Source: a virus (lineage: Duplodnaviria; Caudoviricetes). From it: 38,553 nt of DNA. The translations under genes were made by a program, and so were the position numbers. The stretch spans positions 1-38,553 of IMG/VR virus record IMGVR_UViG_3300031949_000100. The stretch is one strand, 5' to 3'. Below are positions 1 through 38,545 of the stretch, one piece after another (position 1 is the stretch's first letter; every line of letters begins with the position of its first letter). Below the pieces are notes generated by a model, which was not told where the DNA came from, made no database searches, and saw nothing but the letters and a program-made list of their open reading frames with translations.

Positions 1-126
1 TTTTTTTTGGTGTTATTACCGGTATTGTAATGTGCATTTTTATTATTATTGCGAAAAGGCAGACAGGCAATCCTCAGTTAATGTCTGAACTTGAGGTCGG
101 CGGCGGAGTCGGCGAGGTCGGCGGCG
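1..126. repeat. Terminal direct repeat, left copy (circular closure or assembly overlap)
   Basis: 1-126 is identical to 38420-38545. The last 8 nt of the window diverge. Implies a unit genome of about 38419 bp. Confidence 0.95.
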
Positions 127-263
127 TAGATATGTCAGTGAGAGGCAATGCGGTCAGATTTGCTATTCTAAATCCTAGGAGCCAAGTAGAACAAGATAGA
201 GATAATTTGGTAAAAGAAAATGAGCGTCGGGGTAAGGACACGCCATTAGAAGATATTTTGTGA
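30..263 (+). CDS. Hypothetical membrane-anchored protein, true start probably ATG 38413 across the circular junction
   Basis: In frame with MTFFFGVITGIV from 38413, giving a hydrophobic N-terminus. GTGA overlap with groES. Confidence 0.6.
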   Translation: MCIFIIIAKRQTGNPQLMSELEVGGGVGEVGGVDMSVRGNAVRFAILNPRSQVEQDRDNLVKENERRGKDTPLEDIL

Positions 264-508
264 AAGTTTTAAATAATAAAATTCTTATTACCATTCAAAA
301 CGCCGGCAAGACAAAGTCCGGTATAATTTTGACTTCTACGGATAAGATAATCGCGGAAGTTGGGACAGTGAAAGAGATCGCAAAAGAAGTAAAGAAAGTA
401 AAAAAAGGCGATAAAGTTTTATTTAAATCTTATTCGTTAGACATTGTAGAAGTGGATGATGCGAAGTATGTATTTCTGGATGAGAAAGATGTAATTGCTA
501 TTTTTTAA
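260..508 (+). CDS. groES: Co-chaperonin GroES (Cpn10)
   Basis: MKVLNNKILI start, mobile loop KTKSGIILT, then VKKGDKVLF and YVFLDEKDVIAI, all matching the Cpn10 pattern. Confidence 0.92.
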   Translation: MKVLNNKILITIQNAGKTKSGIILTSTDKIIAEVGTVKEIAKEVKKVKKGDKVLFKSYSLDIVEVDDAKYVFLDEKDVIAIF

Positions 509-3075: not shown

Positions 3076-4590
3076 ATGAAACAAATCACACTAGAAGACA
3101 CAAAACAAAAACTTAAAAATGGAGTGGATAAGTTGGCAGATATAGTTCGCGTAACTCTCGGAGGCAAGGGCAAGAATGTAATCATCAGAGATGCCGCCTT
3201 CAGTCAGGTCAGTGTCATCAACGACGGGATGAATATTTCTAAAAAGGTTGAATTAGAAGATGTAATCGAAAACACAGGGGCTATGCTGGTTAAATTAGCG
3301 GCTTATAAGACCGATGAAGAGGTGGGAGACGGCACCACAACTACAATTGTATTACTTCAATCCTATCTTAATGAAATGATGAGAATCGAAACCAATAATC
3401 AGAGAGGGTTAAGAGACGCAATCAAAGTTAAGATTGACGAAATCATAGCCAAGATTGATAAGGAAAAGAGACAAATATCAGGTAATGACCTATACAAGGT
3501 AGCTAAAAACGCATCCCTTGACGATGAAATAGCCGAAGCAGTTGTCGGCGTAGTCAAAAAGATAGGCAAGAATGGGGTATATGACATTGAAGAATCGTCA
3601 GTTAAAGGTATTCAAGTGGAGGTAGTGGACGGAATAAGAGTTAGTGTGGGATATATAACCCCTTATTTTATCAACAATAACGAAAACGGCAAGGCGGAAT
3701 TTAGAAATGTGCCTGTTCTATTGGTTGATCAAAGAATTGAAACTATCCACGAATTAGTAAAACTAATAGACGAGATGTTAAAAAAAGGAAGAAAAGCAAT
3801 GGTTTTATTCTGCAAGCAAATATCTGATGAAGTTGTTGGTTTTCTAGTGGCGAATAAAATGCAAGGAATTTTTCAAACTTGTGTAGTAAAAACTATTGAG
3901 ATGAATGAACTGGAACTTATAACAGGTGCTAAGGTTATTGCGGATAATAGTGCCAATGGATATACTATGGATTCGTTGGGTATTGCCAAAAGCGTAAGTA
4001 TTGGAAAGAAAGAATCAATCGTATCAGCAGGAAAGAATAAAAAAGAAATCAACGAAAAACTCGCGGCGCTTAAAAGCCAAATGGAAGTCGCTGACGAGAA
4101 TGAGAAATTGAAATTAAAACAACTTATATCTAAACTTGAGAACGGAATAGCTACCTTGAGGATAGGCGGAGAAAATGTGCAAGAAACAAAAGAGAAGAAA
4201 TATAAACTGGAAGACGCTATGAATGCCGTAATGGCTGCCATTGATGATGGAGTGGTTGAAGGCGGAGGAATGACGCTATACCGTATCTCCGAAAGTATGA
4301 ATAAATATGGCGAAGCCAGCCGACTGGTAAAAGAAGTCTTAAAATCCCCTCTAAAACAAATACTATTGAATGGGGAAGAAGATTTTGGTGAGGTAATTAA
4401 GGGATATTCTGAAGATAAGGGGTATAATGTAATTACCAGGAAGTGGGAAGATTTATTTGAATCAGGAGTTATTGACCCAGCCAAAGTTGTGAAGTGTTCA
4501 TTGTTTAACGCGTTCAGTATGGGCAACCAAATATTAACTGTTGAAGCTGGAATTTTTGAAGAAAATCCGGAAGAAAAAAAACACATTTGA
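3076..4590 (+). CDS. groEL: Chaperonin GroEL (Cpn60), divergent
   Basis: VTLGGKGKNV, INDG, GDGTTT, LEDAMNA, GVVEGGG and GVIDPAKV motifs. No GGM tail. Confidence 0.95.
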   Translation: MKQITLEDTKQKLKNGVDKLADIVRVTLGGKGKNVIIRDAAFSQVSVINDGMNISKKVELEDVIENTGAMLVKLAAYKTDEEVGDGTTTTIVLLQSYLNEMMRIETNNQRGLRDAIKVKIDEIIAKIDKEKRQISGNDLYKVAKNASLDDEIAEAVVGVVKKIGKNGVYDIEESSVKGIQVEVVDGIRVSVGYITPYFINNNENGKAEFRNVPVLLVDQRIETIHELVKLIDEMLKKGRKAMVLFCKQISDEVVGFLVANKMQGIFQTCVVKTIEMNELELITGAKVIADNSANGYTMDSLGIAKSVSIGKKESIVSAGKNKKEINEKLAALKSQMEVADENEKLKLKQLISKLENGIATLRIGGENVQETKEKKYKLEDAMNAVMAAIDDGVVEGGGMTLYRISESMNKYGEASRLVKEVLKSPLKQILLNGEEDFGEVIKGYSEDKGYNVITRKWEDLFESGVIDPAKVVKCSLFNAFSMGNQILTVEAGIFEENPEEKKHI

Positions 4591-10613: not shown

Positions 10614-10628
10614 TTAGGTTTATGGCTT

Positions 10629-10652
10629 GGGGCTGTGCCTTTAAACAGCCCC
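10629..10652. other. GC-rich hairpin between the structural gene and the tRNA
   Basis: GGGGCTGT/ACAGCCCC 8-bp perfect stem with no U tail. Confidence 0.6.
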
Positions 10653-10661
10653 GTCGGGGAA

Positions 10662-10732
10662 GCCCGATTAGCTCAATAGCAGAGCAATTGTTTTGTAAAC
10701 AAAAGACAAGCGTTCGATTCGTTTATTGGGCT
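10662..10732 (+). tRNA. tRNA-Thr(UGU), atypical
   Basis: Acceptor GCCCGAT/ATTGGGC, D stem GCTC/GAGC, anticodon loop TT-TGT-AA, T arm AAGCG-TTCGATT-CGTTT. CCA not encoded. Confidence 0.8.
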
Positions 10733-10737
10733 CAACT

Positions 10738-10794
10738 AAATAGCGGCGATAATTAAGCGGCTCGCCACCGCGTAATCAGGGTCAGAATTACCCT
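10738..10794 (+). promoter_or_regulatory. Structured leader motif, copy B
   Basis: GGCGA/TCGCC and GCGG/CCGC interleaved, then an AGGGT/ACCCT hairpin with loop ending AGAATT. Confidence 0.55.
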
Positions 10795-10803
10795 ATTAAA
10801 AAT

Positions 10804-26090: not shown

Positions 26091-26222
26091 ATGGCAAGTA
26101 AAATACTATGGACAGGAATCGCTTTAAGTGGATTGGGAGTAGGATATTTCATTCCGCAGACGGTAGTTGTCGGAGCAGTAATTGTAATTATCGGAGCGAT
26201 TTTATTATGGCTTGATAAATAA
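26091..26222 (+). CDS. Small two-TM membrane protein (holin candidate)
   Basis: MASKILWTGIALSGLGVGYFIPQTVVVGAVIVIIGAILLWLDK with SD GAGGTG. Confidence 0.7.
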   Translation: MASKILWTGIALSGLGVGYFIPQTVVVGAVIVIIGAILLWLDK

Positions 26223-26234
26223 AGGAGGTGTAAA

Positions 26235-26402
26235 ATGGAAAAAAAACACTTTTTCCAAGTATGCCGGAAACATCGGCGGGCAAATGTGCACGGGCTTTGG
26301 ATGAATGACGACCAATTCATTAAGTTCATTCGGGCTTACGGAATTACGGCAGACCAAATCAAAATATCCGAAATCCAGTGCGACAAATGCGTAAAAGAAT
26401 AA
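26235..26402 (+). CDS. Small putative zinc-binding protein (55 aa, not in ORF track)
   Basis: SD AGGAGGTG, with CRKH and CDKC motifs. Confidence 0.7.
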   Translation: MEKKHFFQVCRKHRRANVHGLWMNDDQFIKFIRAYGITADQIKISEIQCDKCVKE

Positions 26403-26455: not shown

Positions 26456-26548
26456 ATGGCAAATGATTGTAAATTAAAGTTGCTAGGTTTAGCGATAACT
26501 GGTATAATAATACTGATAGGAATTTATCTGTGTGTTGAAAAATATTGA
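26456..26548 (+). CDS. Possible 30-aa single-TM peptide
   Basis: MANDCKLKLLGLAITGIIILIGIYLCVEKY. Overlaps a promoter match. Confidence 0.4.
   Translation: MANDCKLKLLGLAITGIIILIGIYLCVEKY
26480..26508 (+). promoter_or_regulatory. Candidate promoter for the structured RNA
   Basis: TTGCTA-17nt-TATAAT with extended TGn. Confidence 0.5.
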
Positions 26549-26789
26549 ATAATTTAATATCGGAGAGCGTTGAGGTCGGCGTAAAAAGTGCCGATGCGAG
26601 ATGACTTAATCAATCATCTTTAAGATACATTGGTTGCAAGACCATTGGCGTGCCGTTGATTACGGTTTAAATAACGGTCAAGGACGGAGCGTAAGCCCAA
26701 AATTGAACTGTATCTGCCATAAAACACGCCTCCGGTATTAAGTAATTTAATATTTCCCAGCAAAGCGGAAACGCCAAGCATTAAGGGAA
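26540..26789 (+). ncRNA. Unassigned multi-branched structured RNA
   Basis: Closing stem of about 30 bp with G-U pairs, five internal helices, and GCAA, GTAA and GAAA tetraloops. No long ORF. Confidence 0.7.
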
Positions 26790-26845: not shown

Positions 26846-27118
26846 ATGCTAACTGCTTTTTTAATTTTAATTCTCGCCTTAATCGGGTTGCTTTTACTAA
26901 CGCAAAAAGTGATTTCTAAAATTGAACCCCGAACATTACCCGAACCTACTCAAAGTGAACCCAAACCTACCCAAATTGAACCCCAATCTACTCAAAATAA
27001 TCCAATAAAACCAACCAAAGAAGAATTATACGACGCCGGCTGGACGACTAAAATAATAGAAAAAGACGGAAAATTATGTATTGAAAAACAGAATGAGATA
27101 ATTTATTGTAGTGAATAA
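26846..27118 (+). CDS. Membrane-anchored protein with Pro/Thr/Gln repeats
   Basis: N-terminal TM helix and degenerate 24-nt PTQxEP repeats. Confidence 0.7.
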   Translation: MLTAFLILILALIGLLLLTQKVISKIEPRTLPEPTQSEPKPTQIEPQSTQNNPIKPTKEELYDAGWTTKIIEKDGKLCIEKQNEIIYCSE

Positions 27119-27134: not shown

Positions 27135-27596
27135 ATGAAAAAGTATCACTTATTCGGACATATGGATAGGAATTTTGTCCGGAAAGGCAATAGAGTCATA
27201 AAATATGTCACGCCGATCGGAACAGTCGGAACGGGGAATGGACAGTATTACGCTCATCTTCACTTTTCAATTTCTGAAGGATTGACGATAAATGAGTTAT
27301 ACCGCTATGTGCGGAACTGGACGAAAGATAAAGTGCAAAGATTTTATATTGAACCGAAAGTTGATTTTGAAAAAATGTTCGGTAGAAAAGTAGATGTGGG
27401 GAACTCCGGATATGGCTGGCTGGATTGGGTCGGATACGGCTGGCATCCAGGAGTAGATGTTAATGGAATGGGAGGAGGCAATACGGATTTCGGCTACCCG
27501 TTTAAATCAAGTTGTAATGGAACGGTAATTTACGAAAAAAGAACCTGGTTTAGAAATGGTGGGTGGGGAAATCTTATCGTGATTGCCGAGGATTAA
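27135..27596 (+). CDS. M23-family peptidase (endolysin candidate), circularly permuted
   Basis: FGHM..V.KG.RV..IGTVG..AHLHF precedes HPGVD..G.P..NGTV..GGWGNLIVI. Confidence 0.85.
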   Translation: MKKYHLFGHMDRNFVRKGNRVIKYVTPIGTVGTGNGQYYAHLHFSISEGLTINELYRYVRNWTKDKVQRFYIEPKVDFEKMFGRKVDVGNSGYGWLDWVGYGWHPGVDVNGMGGGNTDFGYPFKSSCNGTVIYEKRTWFRNGGWGNLIVIAED

Positions 27597-27612: not shown

Positions 27613-27792
27613 ATGAATTTAGAATTTTCAAAAAGTAATCGTTTTTGGGCGTTAACAGTGGGAGCGGTAGTTTTCTACTTGAAAAGCAAGGGCTTAATCG
27701 GAAACGAAGAAACTATCCTGATTGAAACGATACTGGGAGGATTCATTGGAATTAAAACAATTGACAGATTGGGAGAAAAAATCGGACAATAA
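27613..27792 (+). CDS. Holin-like small membrane protein (59 aa, not in ORF track)
   Basis: SNRFWALTVGAVVFYL and ILGGFIGIKTIDRLGEK, directly after the peptidase. Confidence 0.65.
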   Translation: MNLEFSKSNRFWALTVGAVVFYLKSKGLIGNEETILIETILGGFIGIKTIDRLGEKIGQ

Positions 27793-27912: not shown

Positions 27913-27931
27913 ACCGCTTCGGCGGTTTTTT
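27913..27931 (+). terminator. Intrinsic terminator ending the late operon
   Basis: ACCGC-TTCG-GCGGT followed by a T run, at the convergence of the two gene blocks. Confidence 0.85.
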
Positions 27932-35064: not shown

Positions 35065-35294
35065 TTCATATCGTTAAAACTAAACGGTGGTCTTACTGGC
35101 AGGATAAATTATCCGAACAGGTCTATCGGTTAATTTTTGGGCTGGATTGCATTCACATCACCCCCAAAGAACGGCTGGCGCAACTCGCCCATAAAAAACT
35201 CGGAAAGTATAGCATTTCGGCAATCAGAAGAATTAAAAAACATAATTTAAAGGGAATAGTATATGAAAAAATAATTTTTAACAAAACAATATGA
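35061..35294 (+). CDS. Hypothetical basic protein
   Basis: ATGA overlaps on both sides. Confidence 0.6.
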   Translation: MIHIVKTKRWSYWQDKLSEQVYRLIFGLDCIHITPKERLAQLAHKKLGKYSISAIRRIKKHNLKGIVYEKIIFNKTI

Positions 35295-36154
35295 AAAAAA
35301 CAAGATGGAAATTTTTAAGGGAAGGATTAATGTCCAACTTTGGGGATAAAAAGTGGGAGTTAGACAAATGGGAACGCGAAGACAAAATTAATATGTGCAA
35401 TTCAGGTTTTCACTGTTCCAAGGAAATAAATCAGGCTTTTATTTTTGTTCAAGGTGAAATTTTGGCGGAGGTAGAAGTCAAGGGCAAGTGCGATAAACAA
35501 GACAATAAAGAAGTTTATACTGATATGCGTATTTTAAAGGCATATAAATGGCAGAAAAAAGATAGCGTGGCTCTTTCTATTTATGCAGCCGAATTATGCT
35601 TAAAGAATTTTGAGAAAGTTTTTCCCGATGATAAGCGCCCGAGAGAAGCAATTGAAGCCGCTAAAAAATGGTTAGCTGAGCCGACGAGTGCTAACGAGTC
35701 GGCGAGGTCGGCGTGGTCGACGGCGGAGTGGTCGGCGTGGGCGGCGTGGTCGGCGGCGGAGTCGGTGGCGAGGTCGGCGGCGAGGTCGACGGCGGAGTCG
35801 GCGGCGAGGTCGACGGCGGAGTCGGCGGCGGAGTCGGCGAGGTCGGCGGTGAGGTCGGCGGCGTGGTCGGCGTGGTCGACGGCGGAGTGGTCGGCGTGGT
35901 CGGCGAGGTCGGCGGCGGAGTCGGCGAGGTCGGCGGCGAGGTCGGCGGCGTGGTCGGCGTGGTCGACGGCGGAGTGGTCGGCGTGGGCGGCGGCGGCGTG
36001 GTCGGCGTGGTCGGCGAGGTCGGCGGCGGAGTCGGCGAGGTCGGCGGCGGAGTCGGCGAGGTCGGCGGCGGAGTCGGCGTGGTCGGCTTTAACTGGAAAA
36101 ATAGAAGTATGGTTTTTAAAAAGATTAAAAGAACTTGAAAAATATGAAAAATAA
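35291..36154 (+). CDS. Phage protein with CNSGFHC domain, Imm5-like segment and Ser/Ala low-complexity repeats
   Basis: MCNSGFHCS, DDKRPREAIEAAKKW and SAAESARSAAW repeats. Confidence 0.8.
   Translation: MKKTRWKFLREGLMSNFGDKKWELDKWEREDKINMCNSGFHCSKEINQAFIFVQGEILAEVEVKGKCDKQDNKEVYTDMRILKAYKWQKKDSVALSIYAAELCLKNFEKVFPDDKRPREAIEAAKKWLAEPTSANESARSAWSTAEWSAWAAWSAAESVARSAARSTAESAARSTAESAAESARSAVRSAAWSAWSTAEWSAWSARSAAESARSAARSAAWSAWSTAEWSAWAAAAWSAWSARSAAESARSAAESARSAAESAWSALTGKIEVWFLKRLKELEKYEK
35696..36087 (+). repeat. GC-rich minisatellite of 9- and 12-nt units
   Basis: Repeated GTCGGCG core with GAG, AGG or TGG codons. Confidence 0.95.
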
Positions 36155-38419: not shown

Positions 38420-38545
38420 TTTTTTTTGGTGTTATTACCGGTATTGTAATGTGCATTTTTATTATTATTGCGAAAAGGCAGACAGGCAATCCTCAGTTAA
38501 TGTCTGAACTTGAGGTCGGCGGCGGAGTCGGCGAGGTCGGCGGCG
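38420..38545. repeat. Terminal direct repeat, right copy
   Basis: Identical to 1-126. Confidence 0.95.

What the first reader, a model, noticed from the sequence alone, without database searches (positions are those of the whole stretch)
26540..26789. Unassigned ~250-nt multi-branched RNA in the lysis module
Seen: 26541-26570 pairs with 26726-26754, with most deviations being G-U, which favours RNA on the plus strand. Inside are helices 26575-82/26588-95, 26599-604/26614-19 and 26623-29/26709-15, the last enclosing TGGTT-GCAA-GACCA, GCCGTT/AACGGT and GC-GTAA-GC. A 3' domain TTCCC/GGGAA carries GCG-GAAA-CGC. A candidate promoter lies about 30 nt upstream. Three GNRA loops suggest tertiary packing. 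I cannot match it to tmRNA, RNase P, SRP, 6S or a group I/II intron.
Basis: partly seen in the sequence, partly recalled or inferred. Interest (0 to 1): 0.75.

Follow-up and report, generated by a model that had tools for sequence, protein, structure and literature searches.

The report
Orphan kissing-loop RNA before phage endolysin
In an uncultured phage, a 214-base non-coding stretch just ahead of the cell-wall-cutting gene has ends that pair over 28 bases, far beyond chance, and is predicted to fold into a compact RNA with a loop-to-loop contact; it is likely a stable accessory RNA of a family not yet catalogued, but no relative was found to test this.

Summary
The element is real but an orphan. 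26541-26570 pairs with 26726-26754 (28 pairs, 3 G-U; 0 of 1000 shuffles of the gap match it). Folding favours the plus strand (z -5.2 vs -3.7). A consensus extended -10 promoter lies at 26480-26508. No Rfam family fits, and direct tests for manA, raiA, RNase P, group I intron and 6S are negative. No homologue was found in 95 related phage records, GenBank phages, plasmids or capped exact-pattern scans, so covariation could not be tested. The closest relative (96% capsid identity) holds a tRNA gene behind a promoter-like site in the same slot. Best reading (0.40): a separately transcribed, stem-clamped, tertiary-folded accessory RNA of the manA/ROOL/GOLLD kind. Main rivals: a lysis-operon leader, or a plain RNase III stem.

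The parts
26091..26402 (+). Two small upstream ORFs (43 aa at 26091-26222; 55 aa, Cys/His-rich, at 26235-26402): the only 2 of 40 genes checked with a Shine-Dalgarno motif
   Evidence: no Pfam hit; the 55-aa ORF finds only itself; weakly similar ORFs sit at the same place in L188 (E 9e-4) and, by eye, in L271
26408..26429 (.). 9-bp hairpin after the upstream ORF; terminator-like only on the minus strand
26480..26508 (+). sigma70-type promoter: -35 at 26480-85, TG at 26500-01, -10 at 26503-08; start site inferred near 26515
   Evidence: 10 of 12 matches; consensus match only
26515..26540 (+). Predicted 5' leader; forms a small hairpin or extends the closing helix by pairing with about 26758-26778
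26541..26570 (+). P1, 5' arm of the 28-pair closing helix
26575..26595 (+). P2 hairpin, A-rich loop
   Evidence: 0.7-0.99
26598..26620 (+). P3 hairpin; its 9-nt loop L3 (26605-13) carries one half of the predicted kissing contact (26607-13)
26623..26719 (+). Inner domain closed either by 26623-29/26709-15 (about 0.3) or by 26646-50/26715-19 (about 0.57); unresolved
26631..26644 (+). P5 hairpin with GCAA (GNRA) tetraloop
   Evidence: 0.78-0.95
26652..26666 (+). P6 hairpin; 26656-62 is the exact 7-nt Watson-Crick complement of 26607-13 (predicted kissing loop)
26686..26698 (+). P7 hairpin with GUAA (GNRA) tetraloop
   Evidence: 0.72
26726..26754 (+). P1, 3' arm
26755..26788 (+).
26846..27118 (+). 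90-aa ORF with a hydrophobic N-terminus; finds only itself
27135..27596 (+). M23 peptidase, likely the endolysin
   Evidence: Pfam PF01551 E 1.8e-7; 154 homologues
27613..27792 (+). 59-aa hydrophobic ORF, holin-like (inferred; no Pfam hit)
27913..27926 (+). First plus-strand intrinsic-terminator-like site downstream of the promoter

Best explanation
The element is likely a separately transcribed accessory non-coding RNA gene in a variable slot of the phage lysis region, and its 28-pair end-to-end helix would clamp a compact core predicted to be held by a 7-bp loop-loop contact and two GNRA tetraloops. Shown: the inverted repeat, its plus-strand G-U bias, the promoter consensus, the two GNRA hairpins, the loop complementarity and the lack of a real ORF. 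Inferred steps: host sigma70 polymerase starts near 26515; the transcript runs on towards the lysis genes because no terminator follows; a cut in or trimming back to the long helix (RNase III or 3' exonuclease) releases a stable RNA of about 210-260 nt; L3 pairs with L6 within one molecule or between molecules, so the RNA would act as a protein-free structural particle or decoy during infection, as proposed for manA, ROOL and GOLLD. Its molecular target is not identified.
For: Closing stem beyond chance. GNRA-capped hairpins: 2 in the real fold, 2 of 1000 interior shuffles reach 2, 3 of 766 genome tiles reach 2, two of them overlapping this element, and none on the minus strand. Loop-loop match of 7 bp: 1 of 1000 shuffles; 2 of the other 765 genome tiles; no other tile has both features. 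Interior G+C 43.5% against 24-28% in the flanks. Promoter about 30 nt upstream. In the closest relative G012 (capsid 96%) the same slot is also non-coding and holds a tRNA(CAT) gene right behind a TG-TATAAT motif seen in the sequence. Other capsid relatives carry promoter-led, stem-closed elements of 215-230 nt, one with a weak manA match (L239: 20 bits, E 0.031, gathering score 55). manA oligomerises through kissing loops and GNRA-receptor contacts (bioRxiv 10.64898/2026.07.01.735769, parts 1-2 of 5 read); ROOL and GOLLD are phage RNAs, often near tRNA islands, held by kissing loops and A-minor contacts (PMC12286853, passages).
Against: No homologue, so no covariation: 0 of 95 related records with model R1; only generic long hairpins in 1.05, 0.68 and 1.05 Mb of loci. 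Interior folding energy is not significant. The kissing test was devised after the loops were seen. The match is 6 A-U pairs and 1 C-G (-3.7 kcal/mol) and needs the terminal U-A pair of P6 to open; with strict loops it is 5 bp, reached by 50 of 766 tiles; the minus strand scores 6. Long G-U-rich stems are common in this phage group (43 rows in 1.73 Mb against 1, 6 and 5 in three shuffles), so the stem alone is ordinary. No terminator separates the RNA from the lysis genes. Promoter-like sites are no more frequent than chance here. The element is absent from the slot in G012 and in L188/L189, so it is dispensable.
Confidence: 0.4

Rival explanations
1. A cis-acting 5' leader of the lysis operon: the folded RNA, or a ligand or protein bound to it, sets how much transcript from the 26480 promoter reaches or is translated into the membrane ORF, the M23 endolysin and the holin-like gene.
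For: Promoter, element and three lysis-region genes are co-directional with no terminator until 27913. The 3' tail has two alternative folds depending on the 5' leader. A constitutive promoter in front of lysis genes would need control (inference). manA itself was first described as a likely cis element (PMC2864571, passages).
Against: No terminator hairpin or expression platform after the element. The next start codon is about 90 nt beyond the stem and largely unaffected by it. None of the relatives with the same endolysin family has the element (7 loci). The closest relative has a tRNA in the slot.
Confidence: 0.25
2. An ordinary double-stranded processing or stability stem (RNase III type) in a phage mRNA, with an incidental interior.
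For: Almost all folding significance comes from the stem. 28 pairs exceed the roughly two helical turns RNase III needs (recalled). Long G-U-rich stems are frequent in related phages. Earlier agents read similar orphans this way (unchecked notes).
Against: A processing stem needs no 155-nt, G+C-raised interior with two GNRA loops and a loop-loop match. It sits directly behind a promoter, not between two cistrons.
Confidence: 0.15
3. A DNA element: a miniature transposon remnant or inverted repeat trapped in a recombination hot spot.
For: Imperfect terminal inverted repeat around 155 nt; single lineage; variable slot.
Against: No target-site duplication at four candidate ends. One copy in the genome. 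No match in plasmids or GenBank phages. All 3 transition mismatches are G-U on the plus strand. No joint skipping the element in the one run laid, which may be the source run.
Confidence: 0.08
4. A strongly diverged copy of a known RNA (RNase P, 6S, raiA, manA, group I intron) captured from the host.
For: Two short stretches near 26686-26706 and 26719-26733 resemble RNase P conserved regions by eye (recalled consensus, no call). CPR RNase P RNAs can fall below Rfam cut-offs (PMC8172020, passages).
Against: No match at E <= 10 per genome for RF00010, RF00013, RF03072, RF01745 or RF00028, nor among 4227 families at E <= 10. The helix order lacks the P2-P3-P4 arrangement, a central bubble, or P3-P7.
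Confidence: 0.06

Closest known systems
manA RNA (Rfam RF01745)
   Same: About 190-220 nt, phage-borne, closed by a 5'/3' helix, multi-hairpin core, GNRA loops and loop-loop contacts; forms RNA-only cages (bioRxiv 10.64898/2026.07.01.735769, parts 1-2 read). A capsid relative, L239, carries a weakly manA-like element behind a similar promoter.
   Different: No covariance-model match here. The conserved internal loop and the two 3' hairpins of the manA consensus shown have no counterpart. The closing helix is 28 pairs, not 5.
ROOL and GOLLD (large ornate phage RNAs)
   Same: Phage accessory RNAs of unknown function, often near tRNA genes, stabilised by kissing loops and A-minor contacts (PMC12286853, passages).
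   Different: Several hundred nucleotides longer; no Rfam match; no covariation available here.
RNase III processing stems of phage mRNAs and rRNA precursors (recalled)
   Same: Long, A-U-rich, slightly imperfect 5'/3' duplex enclosing a sequence.
   Different: Promoter-proximal; encloses GNRA hairpins and a loop-loop match; cleavage untested.
Type I toxin fold-back mRNAs (hok, aapA1; recalled)
   Same: About 220-250 nt with 5'-3' long-distance pairing of GGAG and CUCC. Relatives L273 and L278 have this layout around a 22-aa hydrophobic ORF.
   Different: The window's element encodes no hydrophobic peptide on either strand.

Membership tests
Any Rfam 15 family | Score at or above the family's gathering threshold | tested here: not met
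   only tRNA-Thr at 10662 in the window; 9 matches at E 1.3-9.7, all far below their thresholds
manA (RF01745) | Covariance-model match with conserved internal loop and 3' hairpins | tested here: not met
   0 candidates, none at E <= 10
manA / ROOL / GOLLD type | Loop-loop complementarity able to form a kissing contact | tested here: inconclusive
   7 bp, 1 of 1000 shuffles and 2 of 765 other tiles, but post hoc, A-U-rich and without covariation
manA / ROOL / GOLLD type | RNA-only oligomer or cage | not testable with these tools
   needs mass photometry or cryo-EM
manA / ROOL / GOLLD type | Covariation across homologues | not testable with these tools
   no homologue found
RNase P RNA type A (RF00010) | Conserved regions and P4 pseudoknot | tested here: not met
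   1 candidate scored, none at E <= 10; controls pass the cut-off in 8 of 14 genomes
Group I intron (RF00028) | P3-P7 core and interrupted gene | tested here: not met
   7 candidates scored, none at E <= 10; the element interrupts no ORF or tRNA
6S RNA (RF00013) | Rod with a central bubble | tested here: not met
   predicted fold is multi-branched
raiA motif (RF03072) | Covariance-model match | tested here: not met
   no control genome passes the cut-off, so this test has no positive control
tmRNA / tRNA | tRNA-like acceptor and T arm, tag frame | tested here: not met
   ARAGORN finds only tRNA-Thr at 10662
Type I toxin fold-back mRNA | Short hydrophobic ORF with a sequestered ribosome-binding site | tested here: not met
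   six-frame translation; no Pfam hit of note for the two longest frames
MITE / IS remnant | Target-site duplication and multiple copies | tested here: not met
   host genomes could be probed only with one exact 24-mer
RNase III substrate | Duplex of at least about 22 bp (recalled) | tested here: met
   28 pairs with one mismatch and one bulge
RNase III substrate | Staggered cleavage by the enzyme | not testable with these tools
   needs in vitro cleavage or end mapping

The most novel reading that the evidence does not exclude
The first member of an undescribed family of small phage RNAs that self-assemble through intermolecular L3-L6 kissing and GNRA contacts into protein-free oligomers or cages, made from a dedicated promoter at the head of the lysis genes of a phage of ultra-small (CPR-type) bacteria.
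Probability: 0.12. Interest if true: 0.8.

Novelty: new member of a known kind. Interest (0 to 1): 0.42.

Why it matters
Phage RNAs that build tertiary and quaternary structures without protein (manA, ROOL, GOLLD) have no established function. A 214-nt example with one testable loop-loop contact, next to lysis genes in a CPR-like phage, would widen that class to a poorly studied host group and is easy to transcribe and probe. As a single sequence without covariation it cannot yet answer the functional question, which holds the score down.

Tried and rejected
Homologue searches, all negative. blastn against 50,697 GenBank phages (18 short chance hits) and 72,556 plasmids. Four DNA patterns in IMG/VR: 119 stretches from 17 of 64 parts of the collection; none homologous by blastn/nhmmer or by model R1; 0; 4, chance; 46, chance. 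One exact 24-mer in JGI metagenomes found only the window's own contig and nothing in GTDB genomes; these two scans see only near-identical copies. Relatives fetched through the endolysin, the exonuclease and the capsid alignment (best 80 of 574 kept) gave no match by DNA (11 records) or by models R1/R2. Many of these records are fragments lacking the lysis region: 12 of the 95 were at least 90% complete. The endolysin alignment found nothing in GTDB, so no bacterial genome could serve as a search centre.

L196 590-768 looked homologous by eye (similar loops and spacing; 2 of 300 shuffles, best of 8 comparisons). On the interiors alone it was 65 of 2000, and 224 of 3004 non-coding tiles scored as well: rejected. 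L277, L239, L287, L273, L188 and L271 were not similar either.

Expression: no RNA holder listed; this says nothing about expression. The only run holding the DNA, X1, may be its source; laid on it, one contig spans the region with no variants or joints.

A coding explanation was rejected: a 53-aa minus-strand frame and a 40-aa plus-strand frame have no family. A switch through 26645-51/26771-77 or 26647-52/26725-30 was rejected (pair probability <= 0.001). The 8-bp complementarity of 26726-33 to the Shine-Dalgarno motif of ORF 26235 was noted and not pursued, because that arm is locked in the closing helix. ESM Atlas gave nothing usable for the two flanking ORFs. Cluster look-up gave no host names.

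Literature searches showed no description of this element. In PMC10690425 (10,000 candidate viral RNAs) six supplementary files had no hit for the motifs tried, but files 1, 2 and 4, which may hold the alignments, were not searched, so prior listing there is not excluded. Supplements of bioRxiv preprints are closed.

Full report
Context. The window is a whole virus record, G000, 38,553 nt, 99% complete, with a 126-nt overlap of its ends. It encodes GroES, GroEL, terminase, portal, major capsid, tail-related proteins, an M23 peptidase, NinB, a Cas4-like exonuclease, an O-like initiator and a DnaB-like helicase. The host is probably a CPR (Parcubacteria-type) bacterium. This is an inference: 38 of 40 genes checked lack a Shine-Dalgarno motif, there is a PaaX-like regulator (its link to CPR is recalled), and only 48% of Parcubacteria retain the anti-SD motif (PMC9297842, passages). 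No tool gave a host name. The element lies in a 443-nt gap between a 55-aa ORF ending at 26402 and a 90-aa ORF starting at 26846, which is followed by the M23 peptidase and a holin-like ORF. 'Lysis module' is therefore fair.

The observation. The closing helix is as described: 28 pairs, three G-U, one A-A mismatch, one bulged A, probabilities near 1. The 250-nt stretch folds at z -5.18 on the plus strand and -3.74 on the minus strand. It ranks second of 154 tiles, behind a repetitive coding region and ahead of the tRNA tile. No shuffle of the gap, of 1000, gives such a stem. Most of that signal is the stem: the interior alone gives z -1.7, and 75 of 1000 interior shuffles fold as well. GCCGTT/AACGGT does not (0.01 against 0.72 for the local hairpin), the 7-bp helix 26623-29/26709-15 is one of two alternatives, and the 3' GAAA domain disappears when folding starts at the predicted +1.

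What speaks for a folded RNA beyond the stem. The interior is 43.5% G+C against 24-28% in the flanking gap. Two hairpins carry GNRA loops; 2 of 1000 interior shuffles and, apart from tiles on this element, 1 of 766 genome tiles do so, and the minus strand has none. With the 3' domain included the count is 3, reached by 0 of 300 shuffles. The loop of P3 (26607-13) is the exact 7-nt complement of the loop of P6 with its terminal pair (26656-62); 1 of 1000 shuffles and 2 of 765 other tiles reach 7. This test was devised after the loops were seen, the duplex is weak (-3.7 kcal/mol), and with strict loops it is 5 bp, which 50 of 766 tiles reach. No other tile combines both features. A 10-of-12 extended -10 promoter ends at 26508, and no plus-strand terminator follows until 27913.

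Known families. Rfam gives nothing at the gathering level or at E <= 10. Single-family searches for manA, raiA, RNase P type A, group I intron and 6S are empty. ARAGORN finds no tRNA or tmRNA here. No hydrophobic peptide is encoded, there is no target-site duplication, and the genome has one copy.

Relatives. No homologue was found. GenBank phages, plasmids, four IMG/VR patterns and one exact 24-mer each in metagenomes and GTDB were negative or chance. A single-sequence covariance model found nothing in 95 related phage records (12 of them at least 90% complete), and only generic hairpins in the fetched loci. The slot itself is informative. In G012 (capsid 96% identical, same gene order) it is also non-coding, about 580 nt, and holds a tRNA(CAT) behind a TG-TATAAT motif, followed by a different endolysin. 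In L188/L189 it holds small ORFs. A scan of 1.73 Mb of related phage DNA gave 43 rows of long-range stems against 1, 6 and 5 in three shuffles. Several enclose 215-230 nt directly behind promoters; one, L239, weakly matches manA (20 bits, E 0.031, below the cut-off of 55), and two, L273 and L278, enclose a short hydrophobic ORF. None aligns with the window's RNA better than chance; the best, L196, failed on retest. So stem-closed RNA cassettes of this size recur in this phage group, each with its own sequence.

Mechanism. I commit, at 0.40, to a stand-alone accessory RNA. Host sigma70 polymerase would start near 26515. The 5' and 3' arms would close a 28-pair helix, perhaps longer with the leader, that protects the ends and may be cut by RNase III to free the RNA from the read-through lysis transcript. 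The core would pack through the L3-L6 kiss and GNRA docking, within or between molecules. This is how manA builds pentamers and 60-mers (bioRxiv 10.64898/2026.07.01.735769, parts 1-2 of 5) and how ROOL and GOLLD cages are held (PMC12286853, passages). It would work like these but is a member of none. Rivals: a cis-acting lysis leader (0.25), a plain processing stem (0.15), a DNA repeat (0.08), a diverged known RNA (0.06). All steps after the sequence features are inferred.

Literature seen. Passages only: PMC8172020, PMC2864571, PMC9297842, PMC12286853, 10.64898/2026.10.21.760802 (nothing relevant). Parts 1-2 of 5: 10.64898/2026.07.01.735769. PMC10690425: search listing and a term search of six supplementary files, with three files not searched. 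Searches showed no description of this element. RNase III, type I toxin mRNA and RNase P consensus features are recalled. Earlier scan notes describe similar orphans in other phages; they are unchecked leads.

Verdict. A real, probably transcribed, probably tertiary-folded RNA of no catalogued family, present in one phage lineage so far. Novelty: new member of a known kind (phage accessory structured RNA). Interest 0.42.

Noticed in passing
window 26091-26402; L188 3689-4478; L272 7380-7833: In a phage whose other genes lack Shine-Dalgarno motifs (38 of 40), the small ORFs at the head of the lysis slot have strong GGAGG/GAGGT motifs, and so do the small ORFs at the same place in two relatives. 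They may be meant for a different ribosome (for example the CPR cell's own host) or for special control.
   Followed up: partly
L239 3091-3307 (+), G064: 217-nt stem-closed element (z -4.2) right behind a TG-TATAAT promoter, with a weak manA match (20 bits, E 0.031, cut-off 55): possibly a diverged manA-like RNA in a CPR-like phage.
   Followed up: partly
L287 7355-7573 (-), G070: 219-nt element with a 25-pair closing stem (z -5.2) behind a strong sigma70 promoter; no Rfam match; followed by the same 12-nt GAAA-hairpin motif as the window's 3' tail.
   Followed up: partly
L273 4862-5080 and L278 3563-3778: Fold-back of about 217 nt enclosing a conserved 22-aa hydrophobic ORF with a basic end: looks like a type I toxin-antitoxin mRNA.
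   Followed up: no
L196 345-1050 (G021): Perfect TTGACA-17-TATAAT promoter followed by about 400 nt of non-coding sequence with consecutive long stems (498-592, 590-768) and a third at 953-1050; no Rfam or GenBank phage match.
   Followed up: partly
L277 about 725-910 (G039): 186-nt element closed by an extended helix whose inner end resembles a tRNA acceptor stem, with a T-arm-like hairpin before the 3' arm; no Rfam or ARAGORN hit.
   Followed up: partly
L271 3109-3700 (G012): The syntenic slot holds several hairpins, an atypical tRNA(CAT) (38 bits) and a second promoter ahead of a short hydrophobic ORF of about 26 aa.
   Followed up: partly
window 260-508 and 3076-4590: A 38-kb phage carries its own GroES and GroEL around the terminase gene, unusual for so small a genome.
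   Followed up: no
window 1-126 and 38420-38545: 126-nt terminal overlap that ends in a short tandem repeat: the record is a nearly closed circle of about 38,419 bp.
   Followed up: yes
window 35291-36154: DUF7666/Imm5-like protein with a long (S/W)SAARSAAE repeat tract; the strongest folding signal of the genome is this coding repeat.
   Followed up: no
window 10620-10800: tRNA-Thr(TGT) at 10662-10733 flanked by further G+C-rich hairpins between head and tail genes.
   Followed up: no
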